Part shown: positions 3,851 through 39,902 of the stretch, piece after piece
Layout of the letters: each line of letters opens with the position of its first letter
Numbering within the stretch: the first letter of the stretch is position 1
Source of the DNA: Escherichia phage mellemsur
Length of the DNA stretch: 40,770 bases
Direction: 5' to 3' (one strand)
Sequence record: MN850570.1
Notes under the pieces: generated by a model
What the model was told of the DNA's origin: nothing
The model's input: the letters and a program-made list of their open reading frames with translations, nothing else
Databases searched by the model: none
Position numbers and translations under genes: made by a program

Positions 3851-4320
3851 GATACGCAGAGCGAGCGCGGCGCAGCCGAAACAAGCGAGCGCCGAACGGA
3901 TGACGGATGGCAGACCGTAGGACTGACAGACGGCAGACAGTGAAGGCAGTAGGACAGTAACAGCAGGTAGCAGAGCATGACGCGCAGAGCTGGCAGGCGC
4001 AGACAGTAGACCGGCACACCACACAGCAGGACGGCAGCACCACGCCGCACACCGCTACACACCAGCACCACACAGCACCACGAAAAGAGACAGATACCCG
4101 CACGACCGAGCGCAGCACGCAGCACCGCACAGCCAGCGCAGAGCGTCCCCATAGGACAGCACCGCACAGCACAGCCAGCAGGACAGCGCACAGCACGTCA
4201 CACGGCAGACGATGAAACGCGACACGCACGAGCTATACCGCACGCAGGCAATCCTCTTGACGCGCCGCGCAGCGCACGCGAGCAAATATCGCGCACGTCG
4301 CGAGGCTAATCCGCGCACAC
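3851..4320. repeat. T-depleted (plus strand) degenerate short-repeat tract, presumed genome terminus / terminal-repeat region
   Basis: Manual count roughly 29 T in about 470 nt; recurring CAGCAC/CACAGCA/GACAGC units; lies between last late gene and early promoters. Confidence 0.65.
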
Positions 4321-4384
4321 GTCATGGGGGTACGCGCGGTCATTTGGGTCGAGGGAGGGCCAAGCATAAACGTGCAATTTTCAA

Positions 4385-4435: not shown

Positions 4436-4972
4436 CTACAGCGTCGCACAGTAAGCGCTACAGCGTTTTGCACGAGCAACCAAGGCATCCCTATAGCGAA
4501 CCACTGTCGGGGCTGTAGAAGCCTTTAGGAACGCAATACGAAGGTCACAGATGGCTGCTGCTGCGGAGTGAGGTTCCAGACGTTTGGCTGCTGCCACGGT
4601 AGCAGGGCCAATAACCCCGTCTTGTGCAACGCCGCATACCCGCTGTAGAGCTTTCGCCGCACGGGAGACACCGGAGTTGACACCGTAGTCAAACACGGCA
4701 CATGCAATCGCAGGGTGAAGCTCGTCACCTCGGATGGGGGCGTAGTAATCCCGTCGATAGATTGCTTCGGCTTGTGCTTTGGTGAGGTCTTTGATAGGCA
4801 CGCAAATAGTACCGCCAAGCCCAGTAGGGACACCACAAGCTCGGCCATCCAGTTTGCCATCACGAGCGTCGCTAATTCCATGATTCGTTTCCCCTCCGGT
4901 ATCGCCGGGCAGCTTGGTGTAACCACCTTCTGCCAGCCCGGTGAACCGCATACAGATTTCAAAGTTAGTCAT
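4436..4972 (-). CDS. endolysin, GH108-type N-acetylmuramidase with C-terminal peptidoglycan-binding-like domain
   Basis: N-terminal EGGY...D-x-GG-x-T-x-x-GI motif typical of GH108; no signal/SAR sequence; ATGA overlap with upstream gene. Confidence 0.75.
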   Translation of the reverse strand: MTNFEICMRFTGLAEGGYTKLPGDTGGETNHGISDARDGKLDGRACGVPTGLGGTICVPIKDLTKAQAEAIYRRDYYAPIRGDELHPAIACAVFDYGVNSGVSRAAKALQRVCGVAQDGVIGPATVAAAKRLEPHSAAAAICDLRIAFLKASTAPTVVRYRDALVARAKRCSAYCATL

Positions 4973-5355
4973 TACATCCCCAGTAGTGTAGTGATGAAGG
5001 CTTGCAGTGAGCTTAAGTCACCAGCCTTGATTGCTAAGTAGATACCGCTACACAGGGATGCAGTTAAGAGACACCATTTGACAGCGTGAGCCGCCGCCGT
5101 AAACAACTTACCGATATGGCTCATAGTCTTTTGAATGTCCTGAATTTGCTCAACCACAAGGAGCTGCTGTTGAACCGTCTGCCAGCGGAGGTCGTTCTCA
5201 GCCAGCTTGGAAATCATTGCAGCATCGCCCTTTTCAAGAGTGGCGATTTGTACCTCGTGCTTGTCAAGTCGAAGTTCTACGGTCTGCATACGAGCCTCCA
5301 CTGCACCCATACGCGAGTGGATGTTAGGAGATGGCTCCTTCTTTGCTTCCGTCAT
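4972..5355 (-). CDS. lysis-associated membrane protein, putative holin (alternative start at 5289)
   Basis: Coiled-coil-like N-terminus plus single C-terminal TMD (AVKWCLLTASLCSGIYLAI); immediately upstream of endolysin; GGAGG Shine-Dalgarno before internal ATG at 5289. Confidence 0.35.
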   Translation of the reverse strand: MTEAKKEPSPNIHSRMGAVEARMQTVELRLDKHEVQIATLEKGDAAMISKLAENDLRWQTVQQQLLVVEQIQDIQKTMSHIGKLFTAAAHAVKWCLLTASLCSGIYLAIKAGDLSSLQAFITTLLGM

Positions 5356-5812
5356 CTTTCACTTTCCTTTTCCACGGAGATGGTACAAACCACATGACTA
5401 AACCAAGGATACACGTAAGGCCCATGCCGAAAGCCCATAGGAGGCTGCGTGGGTCGCTCTGAGAGACGATAACTGTGCGAGCCTGTACGTTTCCTTGGGT
5501 CATTTGCGACCCCTGCTTAGAAGCGTTTACAGAGCCTCCTGAGACGTCCTTGATGGATGTGCCATTCGAACCCTGCTTAGCGGTATCCACTTTCGCGTTG
5601 CCAGATACGTCACCGACTTCGGTTTCATCGGACTGTTTCGCAGTCACACCGATACCTTGCTTCGTATTTTCTGCACCTACCTGAGCCGTCAGTTCCGGCT
5701 TGTTGGGAGATACAGCCGAAGTTACAGCAGACAGTGCGCTAGTTGCGGAGCAGCCCGTCAGAGTCAGCGACGCTGATAGGACTGCCCCGGCCATTAGCCG
5801 AGACAGTTTCAT
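5324..5812 (-). CDS. outer-membrane lipoprotein with C-terminal transmembrane anchor, candidate unimolecular spanin
   Basis: Signal peptide with lipobox LTGC; Ser/Thr/Lys-rich region with KQG repeats; C-terminal TMD LLWAFGMGLTCILGLVMWFV and basic tail; adjacent to holin-like gene and endolysin. Confidence 0.5.
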   Translation of the reverse strand: MKLSRLMAGAVLSASLTLTGCSATSALSAVTSAVSPNKPELTAQVGAENTKQGIGVTAKQSDETEVGDVSGNAKVDTAKQGSNGTSIKDVSGGSVNASKQGSQMTQGNVQARTVIVSQSDPRSLLWAFGMGLTCILGLVMWFVPSPWKRKVKDDGSKEGAIS

Positions 5813-5822
5813 GAGATACCCC

Positions 5823-6017
5823 TTACGCTGCGGCGTTCGTCAGGTTAGTGAGCGCCGTTTGAACACGGGTCACGAACTCTTGGTAATACGCCACCAGCTC
5901 AGTGTTGGTGGTATCGAAGAAGTAGTCTTCCGTCCAAACGTTCAGATACTTGGCCGCCATATTACAGGCTGCCACGAACTCCGCACGTTCAGCAGCGGTA
6001 GAGTCAACAAGTGCCAT
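5823..6017 (-). CDS. hypothetical protein
   Basis: 64-aa ORF between post-terminase gene and lysis cassette. Confidence 0.45.
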   Translation of the reverse strand: MALVDSTAAERAEFVAACNMAAKYLNVWTEDYFFDTTNTELVAYYQEFVTRVQTALTNLTNAAA

Positions 6018-6028
6018 AAAGATTCTCC

Positions 6029-6709
6029 TTAAGAGAGTGCGATGCCAGTGATTACACCACTAGCGACAGTGAAGGTAACAGTATCCACGTAGGTGCCAGT
6101 TACCGGGATAGCCAGTGCATCACCGTTATCCACCATGGCCACAGTAGCGGCGAGGTTAAAGCCAGTGAGGGCACCGTTGCTTGCCACGAGAGCAGTGGCG
6201 TTATGAGCGTCAGCACCAGCAGAGTTACGGATGGAGTAAGTCGAACCGTTAAGCACTGCATCGGCGTTAGCTGGGAGCCGCACATTGCTCAGCAGGCCGT
6301 CAGCTACACGGGCGGTGGCAGTGGTGATGCCGAGGATAGAGCCGTCGAAGCGACGAATCTCAGTTGAGTCAGTGTGGTCTACCAGTGCTGCGGTAGACAG
6401 GACGAGCTGTACGTTATCCAGCGTGGTGCCAGTAACGTTGGCTGTGGCATTGTGCGCGTCGTTACCTGCGGAGTTGACCACAGATACAGTAGCGCCGTCA
6501 GCCAGCAGAGCGGAACCTTCCGGCGTACCAGCATAGCCAGCCGCCTCAAGTGCCGCCACCAGATTGGTGATAGCCGTTTCAATATCAGCAGCCTGAGCTG
6601 CCGTCACTGTACGGGTATCATTGATAAAGCGTTGAGTCACATTAGCTGCGATACCGCAGCGATAGCCAAGCTCATAACGCTGTGCATCAGTGATGGTGAT
6701 GATGGACAT
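6029..6709 (-). CDS. hypothetical protein with internal tandem duplication (possible virion-associated)
   Basis: 226 aa, Ala/Thr/Gly/Asn/Val-rich; NSAGNDAHNATANVTG and NSAGADAHNATALVAS repeat units; start overlaps terminase stop. Confidence 0.55.
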   Translation of the reverse strand: MSIITITDAQRYELGYRCGIAANVTQRFINDTRTVTAAQAADIETAITNLVAALEAAGYAGTPEGSALLADGATVSVVNSAGNDAHNATANVTGTTLDNVQLVLSTAALVDHTDSTEIRRFDGSILGITTATARVADGLLSNVRLPANADAVLNGSTYSIRNSAGADAHNATALVASNGALTGFNLAATVAMVDNGDALAIPVTGTYVDTVTFTVASGVITGIALS

Positions 6710-28518: not shown

Positions 28519-28695
28519 CTACGCAAGACAGGCAAACAGAATAGCAGGGATGACAGCCAAGAATACCCACAGGATAAAGCCTGCTGCACCAGACCTGTCA
28601 ACGTGTGTCTTGTTGTACTGGTCGCACGCAGCCAGACAGACAACAGAGAACAGGGCAAACCATACCACAGCTACAATCCAAAGTAAAACACTCAT
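28519..28695 (-). CDS. small membrane protein
   Basis: about 58 aa with two hydrophobic helices; start moved to MSVLLWIV. Confidence 0.4.
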   Translation of the reverse strand: MSVLLWIVAVVWFALFSVVCLAACDQYNKTHVDRSGAAGFILWVFLAVIPAILFACLA

Positions 28696-39268: not shown

Positions 39269-39705
39269 TCGTTATCCCAGTCCGGTATGTACTGAATCTT
39301 CTTCTTCATCTTCACGCTGGCTACAACTTGCAGCACACGGACAGTACCTCCGTTCCGCTCTGCCAAACGTTCAGCTTCGTCACGCGCCTCGCGCTCAGTG
39401 ATGTGCTCAACCTTCGGCGGCGCATTACTGCCTTCGACCAAGCACATGAACCGACCACGCTTCTCTGCTGGCGTGCTGACCAGACTGGTGTTGTCCTCCA
39501 GCCAATCAGATTTGTAGTGGCTGATATCCGGCTGCGCATTGAGGCGCTCACCAATCCAGCTCACGATGTAACGAGTCTCCCCGCTACGTTCCCACGCTCG
39601 GCGGTCAGGGTTAACCCACGCGATGATACCCAGCTTACCTGACCGGGTGCCAGTGCCATCGTCGCCTACGATTTCATCCCCGACTTTATACTTTGGCTTC
39701 ACCAT
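39265..39705 (-). CDS. hypothetical protein
   Basis: 146-aa ORF; N-terminal KVGDEIV segment. Confidence 0.45.
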   Translation of the reverse strand: MVKPKYKVGDEIVGDDGTGTRSGKLGIIAWVNPDRRAWERSGETRYIVSWIGERLNAQPDISHYKSDWLEDNTSLVSTPAEKRGRFMCLVEGSNAPPKVEHITEREARDEAERLAERNGGTVRVLQVVASVKMKKKIQYIPDWDNE

Positions 39706-39902
39706 TTAATCCACCTCCGGCTCTGGCCTACACTCAGGCTCAACTGCATCAGACCCCAGCCCACCAGCATACCGAGCAGCGTGCCCAGTGTTGAAGTGGC
39801 TGACTCACCGACAGCAGGGATAAGCACCAGTGATGCAAGACCTACCCACAATGCTCCCCAAATAATAACCAGAAGTAGGAACAACAATATTACTTTGAAC
39901 AT
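39699..39902 (-). CDS. small membrane protein
   Basis: 67 aa, two hydrophobic helices; GAGGTG Shine-Dalgarno. Confidence 0.5.
   Translation of the reverse strand: MFKVILLFLLLVIIWGALWVGLASLVLIPAVGESATSTLGTLLGMLVGWGLMQLSLSVGQSRRWIKW

What the first reader, a model, noticed from the sequence alone, without database searches (positions are those of the whole stretch)
5324..5812. Candidate unimolecular spanin: lipoprotein with C-terminal transmembrane anchor in the lysis cassette
One polypeptide carries an N-terminal lipoprotein signal (lipobox LTGC), a periplasmic Ser/Thr/Lys-rich region with KQG repeats, and a C-terminal TMD plus basic tail. This is the architecture of u-spanins such as T1 gp11, which bridge outer and inner membrane in one chain, instead of the usual two-component Rz/Rz1. 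It sits directly upstream of the holin-like gene and endolysin.
Basis: partly seen in the sequence, partly recalled or inferred. Interest (0 to 1): 0.55.

Follow-up and report, generated by a model that had tools for sequence, protein, structure and literature searches.

The report
Known T1-type unimolecular spanin gene
The gene is a single-chain spanin, the phage protein that ties the inner and outer membranes together and breaks the outer membrane at the end of lysis; it is a real example, but this family and its near-identical orthologue were already catalogued in 2018.

Summary
Window 5324..5812 (minus strand) encodes a 162-aa protein with a lipoprotein signal (lipobox LTGC, Cys21, Ser at +2). 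It has a ~100-aa Cys-free periplasmic segment, one C-terminal transmembrane helix (~123-147) and a basic tail. It is the only credible lipoprotein ORF in all six frames, and no i-spanin-like gene exists.

The window is a Bonnellvirus (Autographiviridae) genome, 99% identical over the 2.5-kb cassette region to Escherichia phage megetsur, which carries the identical protein ("putative Rz1A protein"). The protein is homologous to T1 gp11: same PHROG 1804, pairwise E 2e-16, invariant TAQVGAENTKQ motif. The J8-65 orthologue (94% identical) is listed in the T1 gp11 u-spanin family by Kongari et al. 2018, who noted its unusual length and its pairing with a non-SAR endolysin.

Small additions:
- The extra length comes from a 21-aa module present in 1, 2 or 3 copies across the family.
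- The neighbouring 127-aa "holin-like" gene belongs to an unannotated family (PHROG 35530). That family sits directly upstream of soluble endolysins of two unrelated families, which makes it a candidate holin.

Function is inferred by homology only. Interest is low.

The parts
5324..5812 (-). u-spanin CDS, 162 aa plus stop codon (T1 gp11 family, PHROG 1804)
   Evidence: ORF. PHROG 1804 E 6.9e-36. 100% identical to megetsur QHR70541.1. Homology to T1 gp11.
5819..5824 (-). Shine-Dalgarno-like AAGGGG, 6 nt upstream of the ATG; overlaps the stop codon of the upstream 64-aa gene
   Evidence: Upstream sequence printed; read directly from the sequence.
5753..5812 (-). Signal peptide, residues 1-20 (n-region K2/R5, hydrophobic h-region), predicted to be cleaved by signal peptidase II
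   Evidence: AF2 helix 4-19.
5750..5761 (-). Lipobox L18-T-G-C21. Cys21 is the predicted lipidated first residue of the mature protein, followed by Ser at +2.
   Evidence: Cys invariant and Gly nearly invariant in 48 homologues. 119 of 120 homologues match the lipobox pattern.
5657..5689 (-). Invariant family motif TAQVGAENTKQ (residues 42-52), shared with T1 gp11
   Evidence: Alignments. QVGAENTKQ is present in 111 of 120 homologues.
5555..5617 (-). 21-aa periplasmic repeat, copy 1 (residues 66-86, VGDVSGNAKVDTAKQGSNGTS)
   Evidence: self-alignment score 43 against 26.5 +/- 5.1 in shuffles, 24 of 2000 shuffles reach it. The indel in alignment corresponds to this unit.
5495..5554 (-). 21-aa periplasmic repeat, copy 2 (residues 87-106, IKDVSGGSVNASKQGSQMTQ); this is the copy present in all family members
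   Evidence: A 14-nt DNA echo lies at a spacing of 60 nt.
5372..5446 (-). C-terminal transmembrane helix (residues ~123-147), the inner-membrane anchor
   Evidence: KD maximum 2.0 or 2.11 with a 17-residue window. AF2 helix 121-142, the only part with pLDDT >70. 118 of 120 homologues have a C-terminal TMD.
5327..5371 (-). Basic cytoplasmic tail KRKVKDDGSKEGAIS; its last 10 codons overlap the start of the next gene
4972..5355 (-). 127-aa candidate holin (PHROG 35530, 'unknown function'): one long helix (residues 12-110) ending in a TMD bracketed by K93 and K110, then an invariant G-D and a short tail
   Evidence: AF2 pLDDT 83. Always found directly upstream of an endolysin gene.
4436..4972 (-). 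Endolysin: GH108 muramidase plus PG_binding_3, with no signal or SAR sequence
   Evidence: Pfam PF05838 E 8.9e-22. PHROG 315. No hydrophobic segment in the frame-0 product.

Best explanation
The gene encodes a unimolecular spanin of the T1 gp11 family. It is the last-acting component of a three-gene lysis cassette: u-spanin, candidate holin, soluble GH108 endolysin.

Proposed mechanism, all inferred from the prototype:
1. The precursor is exported by Sec. Cys21 is lipidated and the signal peptide is removed by signal peptidase II.
2. [quoted passage not shown]
3. The C-terminal helix (~123-147) stays in the inner membrane, with its basic tail in the cytoplasm.
4. The ~100-residue Cys-free periplasmic segment therefore threads through the peptidoglycan mesh and tethers the two membranes.
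5. While the wall is intact the tethers are held in place and inactive.
6. When the holin fires and the endolysin degrades the wall, the spanins can diffuse, cluster and change conformation. This pulls and fuses the inner and outer membranes and releases the progeny.

Shown here: the architecture, the homology, the family-wide conservation of the lipobox and the TMD, the cassette position, and the absence of any Rz/Rz1 pair.

Inferred: lipidation, sorting, dual-membrane topology, regulation by peptidoglycan, and membrane fusion.
For: - Architecture.
- Homology to T1 gp11: pairwise BLASTP E 2e-16, 34% identity over the whole length. A tblastn search hits the T1 CDS annotated 'u-spanin', whose GenBank record cites PMID 30135120 for its molecular function.
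- T1 gp11, the CB5 and LIMEzero u-spanins and this protein all match PHROG 1804, at E 1e-33 to 1e-44.
- In a 10-sequence alignment that includes T1 gp11, L18, G20, C21 and TAQVGAENTKQ are invariant.
- 117 of 120 database homologues keep both the lipobox and the C-terminal TMD. Two exceptions are truncated fragments; the third has LMGC, which my pattern did not accept.
- +2 is S, A or G in all 119 homologues with a lipobox, never D.
- Synteny TerL ... u-spanin, holin, endolysin matches KP34-like and phiM1-like phages (PMC4411677 and PMC6115819).
- Kongari et al. 2018 place J8-65 (94% identical) and LIMEzero in the T1 gp11 family. They report that gp11 complements the lambda RzRz1 defect (PMC6139136).
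- No other lipoprotein ORF and no N-terminal-TMD/coiled-coil i-spanin candidate on the coding strand.
Against: - There is no experimental evidence for this protein or for any Bonnellvirus orthologue.
- Identity to T1 gp11 is only 34%, with a 20-30 residue insertion.
- The AF2 monomer model is uninformative for the periplasmic part (mean pLDDT 51.5, coil). The beta-rich pattern described for the family could therefore not be confirmed here.
- The partner holin is unverified.
- Database annotations are inconsistent: 'Rz1A', 'Rz1-like lysis protein', 'Rz-like spanin', 'hypothetical protein'.
Confidence: 0.9

Rival explanations
1. It is the o-spanin (Rz1-like outer-membrane lipoprotein) of a two-component spanin, and its i-spanin partner is encoded elsewhere. 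This is what the annotations 'Rz1A' and 'Rz1-like lysis protein' imply.
For: GenBank and UniRef names such as 'putative Rz1A protein' and 'putative Rz1-like lysis protein'. It is a lipoprotein encoded in a lysis cassette.
Against: - It carries its own C-terminal TMD with a basic tail, which o-spanins lack.
- No gene for an N-terminal-TMD plus periplasmic coiled-coil protein exists on the coding strand.
- There is no periplasmic Cys for the intermolecular disulfides seen in Rz/Rz1.
- It is homologous to the experimentally defined u-spanin gp11.
Confidence: 0.03
2. It is a phage lipoprotein with another role, for example superinfection exclusion or receptor masking like T5 Llp or Cor, and it merely sits next to the lysis genes.
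For: Small phage lipoproteins with such roles exist (general knowledge). No functional test exists for this clade.
Against: - Those proteins have no C-terminal inner-membrane anchor.
- Here homology (PHROG 1804, T1 gp11), the conserved dual anchors and the conserved cassette position across more than 500 phage records all point to spanin function.
- The genome would otherwise lack any outer-membrane disruption gene.
Confidence: 0.04
3. It is a decayed or non-functional relic, and the outer membrane is disrupted by some other factor, for example a disruptin-like peptide.
For: About 13% of phages in the 2018 survey lack recognisable spanins, so alternative routes exist (PMC6139136). The protein is 'unusually long' for its family.
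Against: - The ORF is intact.
- The lipobox, the TAQVGAENTKQ motif and the TMD are conserved from 96% down to ~50% identity among database homologues and in 34%-identical T1 gp11.
- The length change is a clean in-frame module duplication, not decay.
Confidence: 0.03

Closest known systems
Escherichia phage J8-65 gp45 (YP_009101394) and Escherichia phage megetsur gp51 (QHR70541): Bonnellvirus u-spanins
   Same: Megetsur gp51 is 100% identical and J8-65 gp45 is 94% identical. Length, cassette and genus are the same. J8-65 is listed as a T1 gp11-family u-spanin of 163 aa in Kongari et al. 2018.
   Different: Essentially nothing. Only the database names differ ('putative Rz1A protein', 'Rz-like spanin').
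Phage T1 gp11, the prototype unimolecular spanin (AAP49988)
   Same: Lipobox signal, C-terminal TMD, Cys-free periplasmic domain, the invariant TAQVGAENTKQ motif, and the same PHROG 1804.
   Different: - 34% identity; 162 aa against 133 aa, because of an extra 21-aa module.
- Gene order here is spanin, holin, endolysin. In T1 it is holin, endolysin, spanin.
- T1 pairs it with a pinholin and a SAR endolysin. Here the endolysin is a soluble GH108 enzyme and the holin candidate is unrelated.
u-spanins of KP34-like (Drulisvirus) and phiM1/CB5-like (Phimunavirus) Autographiviridae
   Same: Same family (~50-55% identity to the Pectobacterium phage proteins) and the same gene order of spanin, holin, endolysin after TerL. 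The spanin 3' end overlaps the holin start (PMC4411677, PMC6115819).
   Different: Those proteins are ~127-135 aa with one copy of the 21-aa module. They are paired with a PHROG 20 pinholin and a SAR endolysin.
Lambda Rz/Rz1 two-component spanin
   Same: The same inferred job: tether the inner and outer membranes through the wall and disrupt the outer membrane after endolysin action. gp11 complements the RzRz1 defect (PMC6139136).
   Different: Rz/Rz1 is two chains, with an alpha-helical coiled-coil i-spanin and disulfide-linked dimers. Here there is one chain, no coiled coil and no periplasmic cysteine.

Membership tests
T1 gp11-family unimolecular spanin | N-terminal signal peptidase II signal with a lipobox and an invariant Cys | tested here: met
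   MKLSRLMAGAVLSASLTLTG|C with lipobox LTGC. The Cys is invariant in the alignments. This is pattern and hydropathy analysis; no LipoP or SignalP was available.
T1 gp11-family unimolecular spanin | Outer-membrane sorting: no Asp at +2 after the lipidated Cys | tested here: met
   +2 is Ser here. It is S (101), A (15) or G (3) in 119 homologues. The Lol-avoidance rule is from established knowledge.
T1 gp11-family unimolecular spanin | Single C-terminal TMD followed by a positively charged cytoplasmic tail | tested here: met
   Residues ~123-147, KD maximum 2.0-2.1, then KRKVK. AF2 helix 121-142. Present in 118 of 120 homologues.
T1 gp11-family unimolecular spanin | Detectable sequence homology to gp11 | tested here: met
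   BLASTP E 2e-16. A tblastn search hits the T1 u-spanin CDS. Both fall in PHROG 1804. Shared TAQVGAENTKQ motif.
T1 gp11-family unimolecular spanin | Encoded within or adjacent to the holin/endolysin lysis cassette | tested here: met
   It overlaps the 127-aa single-TMD gene by 32 nt, and that gene abuts the GH108 endolysin gene.
T1 gp11-family unimolecular spanin | Periplasmic domain predicted as a short helix plus several beta strands, with no coiled coil | tested here: inconclusive
   AF2 gives a short helix at 24-30 and otherwise low-confidence coil (pLDDT <50). The Kongari supplement reports 15 helical and 35 strand residues out of 102 for J8-65.
T1 gp11-family unimolecular spanin | Genome lacks a two-component spanin | tested here: met
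   It is the only credible lipoprotein ORF in six frames. No real gene encodes an N-terminal TMD followed by a long periplasmic domain.
T1 gp11-family unimolecular spanin | Complements a lambda Rz/Rz1 lysis defect, and is lipidated and attached to both membranes | not testable with these tools
   Requires experiments. Shown only for T1 gp11 (PMC6139136; GenBank note citing PMID 30135120).
Two-component spanin (Rz/Rz1 type) | Separate i-spanin gene (N-terminal TMD plus periplasmic coiled coils), with an embedded, overlapped or adjacent o-spanin gene | tested here: not met
   No such gene pair on the coding strand.
Two-component spanin (Rz/Rz1 type) | The o-spanin is a short lipoprotein without a membrane-spanning segment, and periplasmic Cys residues form intermolecular disulfides | tested here: not met
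   This protein has a C-terminal TMD. Its only mature-chain Cys (C133) lies inside that TMD. The Kongari Cys table lists 0 for J8-65.

The most novel reading that the evidence does not exclude
This u-spanin may belong to a sub-lineage that has swapped the usual pinholin/SAR-endolysin partners for soluble endolysins plus a previously unrecognised holin family (PHROG 35530). Members of that family are a ~100-residue continuous helix whose last turns form the only TMD, followed by K-[AS]-G-D. In the same sub-lineage the periplasmic tether has been lengthened in discrete 21-residue modules: 1, 2 or 3 copies, giving 127, 162 or 188 aa. The module number could act as a length adjuster for spanning the envelope.
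Probability: 0.35. Interest if true: 0.4.

Novelty: already known. Interest (0 to 1): 0.15.

Why it matters
For annotation, the gene should be called 'u-spanin (T1 gp11 family)'. Related records currently use 'Rz1A', 'Rz-like spanin' or 'hypothetical protein'.

Biologically it adds little, because the J8-65 orthologue was already catalogued and its oddities noted. Two side points may be useful to lysis specialists:
- There is a natural 1-, 2- and 3-copy series of a 21-residue periplasmic module. This gives a ready-made set for testing how tether length affects u-spanin function.
- There is comparative evidence that the orphan PHROG 35530 protein is the holin that lets a gp11-type spanin work with soluble endolysins.

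Tried and rejected
- AF2 of the u-spanin with a 48-sequence alignment gave mean pLDDT 51.5, with only the signal peptide, a short helix and the TMD modelled. No fold search was run, because matches would be meaningless.
- Pfam and NCBIfam have no model for the u-spanin. Only sub-threshold noise appeared, such as BSP_II and the Lpp signal peptide region.
- I tested whether a 118-aa +1-frame ORF embedded in the endolysin gene (4525..4881, minus; strong N-terminal TMD) is the real holin.
  - For: it is open in the Bonnellvirus phages and contigs examined, including contigs whose endolysin is only 66-80% identical. It is improbable given the protein sequence and codon usage: P(open) 0.006-0.03 and P(TMD) 0.0003-0.011.
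  - Against: conditional tests are weak (0.08-0.10). Synonymous-site constraint is not significant against neighbouring genes in the two most diverged comparisons (p = 0.14 and 0.08). The +1 product evolves much faster than the endolysin. LIMEzero lacks it. Distant cassettes with T4-type endolysins have no counterpart.
  - Verdict: probably chance, left open.
- A weak Pfam XhlA resemblance of the 127-aa family (best 18.8 bits against a cut-off of 34.7) is confined to the coiled-coil part and sits among other coiled-coil noise. I did not accept it as homology.
- The search for related loci with the divergent alignment A5 failed because no stretch was conserved enough.
- The T1 gp11 J Virol paper (PMID 30135120) is not held.
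- The promoter/terminator scan around the cassette showed nothing above shuffled expectation.

Full report
**What is at the coordinates.** Window 5324..5812 holds an ATG-initiated ORF on the minus strand, 162 aa long. An AAGGGG Shine-Dalgarno-like element lies 6 nt upstream and overlaps the stop codon of the preceding 64-aa gene.

The product begins MKLSRLMAGAVLSASLTLTG|C. It has two basic residues, an uncharged hydrophobic core, the lipobox L-T-G-C with Cys21, and Ser at +2. The next ~100 residues (22-122) are rich in Ser, Val, Ala, Gly, Thr and Gln. They contain no Cys and only 7 Lys, with KQG or KQS at residues 51, 59, 79 and 99.

Residues ~123-147 (SLLWAFGMGLTCILGLVMWFVPSPW) form the only strongly hydrophobic segment (Kyte-Doolittle maximum 2.0-2.1). 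The tail KRKVKDDGSKEGAIS follows.

I scanned all 1802-2011 possible start sites in six frames. This is the only ORF with a credible lipoprotein signal.

**Where the window comes from.** The 2.5 kb around the gene is 99.2% identical to Escherichia phage megetsur (MN850608; Autographiviridae, Bonnellvirus). It is 84-98% identical to other Bonnellvirus phages, including J8-65.

On the coding strand the gene order is:
- TerS, TerL
- a 226-aa protein and a 64-aa protein
- the ORF in question
- a 127-aa protein
- a GH108 endolysin
- a non-coding region, then the early-gene SAMase

The megetsur protein is 100% identical and is named 'putative Rz1A protein'. The J8-65 and LF82-23 orthologues are named 'Rz-like spanin'. 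Several records call it hypothetical.

**Homology.** The protein matches PHROG 1804 ('Rz-like spanin') at E 6.9e-36. It has no Pfam or NCBIfam family.

A search of 5.8 billion proteins returned 184 homologues. They include 'RzlA (u-spanin)' of Pectobacterium phage PPWS1 and 'Rz1A' of LIMEzero. A tblastn search against 50,697 phage records found 518 records. Most are Klebsiella KP34-like, Pectobacterium phiM1-like and T1-like phages, and they include T1 itself (AY216660, CDS 'u-spanin').

Pairwise BLASTP against T1 gp11 gives E 2e-16 and 34% identity end to end. T1 gp11 and the CB5 and LIMEzero proteins hit the same PHROG 1804, at E 1e-33 to 1e-44.

In a 10-sequence alignment that includes T1 gp11, L18, G20, C21 and the stretch T-A-Q-V-G-A-E-N-T-K-Q are invariant.

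Of 120 database homologues, 117 keep both a lipobox and a C-terminal TMD. Two of the three exceptions are truncated fragments; the third has LMGC, which my pattern did not accept. The +2 residue is S, A or G in all 119 with a lipobox, never D. In 105 of those 119 the mature chain has no Cys.

**Absence of a two-component spanin.** No other lipoprotein ORF exists. On the coding strand, no real gene encodes an N-terminal TMD followed by a long periplasmic domain.

**Prior knowledge.** Kongari et al. 2018 (BMC Bioinformatics 19:326; PMC6139136) list 'Limezero, J8-65' among the 28 members of the T1 gp11 u-spanin family in their Table 5. [quoted passage not shown] They also note that these are the only family members not associated with a pinholin and a SAR endolysin.

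Their supplement gives J8-65 as a 163-aa u-spanin with a 102-aa periplasmic domain, 15 helical and 35 strand residues, and no periplasmic Cys.

The same paper summarises the functional basis. T1 gene 11 complements the lambda RzRz1 lysis defect, and lipobox variants behave as expected.

The order spanin, holin, endolysin with a u-spanin has been described for KP34-like and phiM1-like Autographiviridae (PMC4411677, PMC6115819).

**Mechanism.** This is inferred by homology and not tested here.
1. The precursor is exported by Sec. Cys21 is lipidated and the signal peptide is cleaved by signal peptidase II.
2. The Lol system delivers the acylated N-terminus to the outer membrane, because +2 is Ser.
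3. The C-terminal helix remains in the inner membrane, with its basic tail in the cytoplasm.
4. The ~100-residue tether passes through the peptidoglycan mesh, which restrains it.
5. Once the holin releases the GH108 endolysin and the wall is degraded, the spanins cluster and change conformation. This fuses the two membranes and removes the last barrier to release (model as stated in PMC6139136).

The AF2 monomer model is uninformative for the tether. Mean pLDDT is 51.5, with helices only at 4-19, 24-30 and 121-142. That fits a flexible or oligomerisation-dependent domain but proves nothing.

**What is slightly new.** The 'unusual length' has a simple basis. A 21-residue unit, V-x-D-V-[ST]-G-x-x-K-V-[DN]-x-[AS]-K-Q-G-x5, occurs in different copy numbers:
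- once in the 127-129-aa proteins (for example PPWS1: IKDVQGPVNASKQG...)
- twice here and in J8-65 (residues 66-86 and 87-106)
- three times in LIMEzero (188 aa)

Within this protein the self-match is modest: score 43 against 26.5 +/- 5.1 in shuffles, reached by 24 of 2000 shuffles. At the DNA level only a 14-nt echo at a spacing of 60 nt remains, so the duplication is old.

**The neighbouring 'holin-like' gene.** The 127-aa protein (4972..5355, minus) matches only PHROG 35530 ('unknown function'). It has 33 close homologues in 5.8 billion proteins, none carrying a functional name.

AF2 with a 14-sequence alignment (pLDDT 83) predicts one continuous helix from residue 12 to 110, a break at G112-D113, and a short helix at 114-125. 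The only hydrophobic stretch is a 16-residue core, W94-I109, bracketed by K93 and K110.

An exhaustive profile search found a handful of full-length relatives at 21-30% identity. They share the architecture and have more clearly hydrophobic TMDs. G17, E20, L65, K93 and G112-D113 are invariant.

Their contigs are informative:
- In two contigs (L055, L056) the order is TerL, a gp11-family u-spanin (lipobox LWGC or LSAC; TAQVGKTNTKQ or TAQVGAENVKQ), the 35530-type gene overlapping the spanin 3' end, then a T4-type lysozyme (PF00959). In L056 and L058 the N-terminus shows no obvious hydrophobic stretch by eye.
- In two further contexts (L058/L059, L060) the gene again sits directly upstream of a PF00959 endolysin.

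Keeping this position while the endolysin family changes from GH108 to the T4 type is good comparative evidence for a lysis role, most simply as the holin for soluble endolysins.

Residues 8-22, upstream of the start chosen in RefSeq for J8-65 and LIMEzero (105-106 aa), are conserved even in LIMEzero, where much of this stretch lies beyond the end of the spanin gene. The longer form is therefore probably real.

**An embedded ORF I examined and do not endorse.** The +1 frame of the endolysin gene carries a 118-aa ORF (4525..4881, minus). It has a strong N-terminal TMD and an SD-like GGAGGGG upstream.

Evidence for it:
- It has the same start and stop in the Bonnellvirus phages and viral contigs examined by translation. 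These include contigs whose endolysins are only 66-80% identical.
- A tblastn search aligns nearly all of it in all 19 Bonnellvirus records.
- Recoding simulations give P(open) of 0.006-0.03 and P(a TMD this hydrophobic) of 0.0003-0.011.

Evidence against it:
- Tests conditioned on inherited codons are weak (0.08-0.10).
- Synonymous-site constraint is not significant relative to neighbouring genes in the two most diverged comparisons (p 0.14 and 0.08).
- The +1 product diverges much faster than the endolysin. For Lidtsur it is 71% identical where the endolysin is 93%.
- LIMEzero lacks the TMD.
- The distant cassettes have no equivalent.

With roughly 100 alternative frames in the genome, this is compatible with chance.

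**Verdict.** The novelty is nil for the spanin call itself. My confidence that this is a functional gp11-family u-spanin is 0.9. Interest is low (0.15). The module-copy series and the holin candidate are modest leads.

Noticed in passing
window 4972..5355 (-); loci L055 1591..1974, L056 1461..1868, L058 3001..3381, L060 246..695: The 127-aa gene between the u-spanin and the endolysin belongs to an unannotated family (PHROG 35530). AF2 predicts one ~100-residue helix ending in a single TMD bracketed by Lys, followed by an invariant G-D. Relatives at 21-30% identity always sit immediately upstream of an endolysin, GH108 here and T4-type PF00959 elsewhere. Twice they also sit downstream of a gp11-type u-spanin. 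This makes the family a candidate new holin family.
   Followed up: partly
window 4525..4881 (-), inside the endolysin gene 4436..4972: A 118-aa ORF lies in the +1 frame of the GH108 endolysin gene, with a strong N-terminal TMD (KD 2.4) and an SD-like GGAGGGG upstream. It is open with the same start and stop in the Bonnellvirus relatives examined, down to 66% endolysin identity. It is unlikely given codon usage (P 0.006-0.03). However, there is no significant synonymous-site constraint in the most diverged comparisons, and it is absent from LIMEzero and from distant cassettes. It is probably chance, but not excluded.
   Followed up: partly
window 5495..5617 (-); LIMEzero P0023 residues 66-127: The length differences within the gp11 family (127, 162 and 188 aa) correspond to 1, 2 and 3 copies of a 21-residue periplasmic module (V-x-D-V-S/T-G-..-K-V-D/N-x-A/S-K-Q-G-x5).
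   Followed up: partly
window 3880..4330 (sense = minus strand): A non-coding stretch of ~450 nt between the endolysin gene and the early region is strongly depleted in A on the coding strand: 30 of 451 bases (6.7%), against 22.9% genome-wide. It is the only such region in the window. It is full of GTGCTG-like short repeats (period 5-10) and overlaps the position of the 259-bp terminal repeat annotated in J8-65. The long Cys-rich 'ORFs' listed there are artefacts of this composition.
   Followed up: partly
window 28519..28695 (-) and 39699..39902 (-): Two small, very hydrophobic predicted proteins lie in the DNA-metabolism and early regions. One is 58 aa from the internal ATG and the other is 67 aa. 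Each has two TMD-like segments (KD 2.8-3.0). Neither matches a PHROG. They are other small membrane proteins that would need to be excluded as holins or antiholins.
   Followed up: partly
window 5823..6017 (-) and 6029..6709 (-); L013 1340..1651: The two genes between TerL and the u-spanin are paralogous. The 64-aa protein resembles the N-terminal ~60 residues of the 226-aa protein (E 0.004). In relatives the short gene also carries the C-terminal '...VTFTVA.G.IT.IALS' module of the long one (E 6e-8). Their function is unknown.
   Followed up: partly
J8-65 L002 868..1185 and LIMEzero L007 2552..2872, against window 4972..5355: The RefSeq start of the 127-aa gene's orthologues is set at the internal Met23 (105-106 aa). 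Residues 8-22 upstream (P..N..SRMG..EAR) are conserved even in LIMEzero, where much of this stretch lies beyond the end of the spanin gene. The longer form, which overlaps the u-spanin 3' end by 32 nt in the window, is therefore probably the real one.
   Followed up: partly
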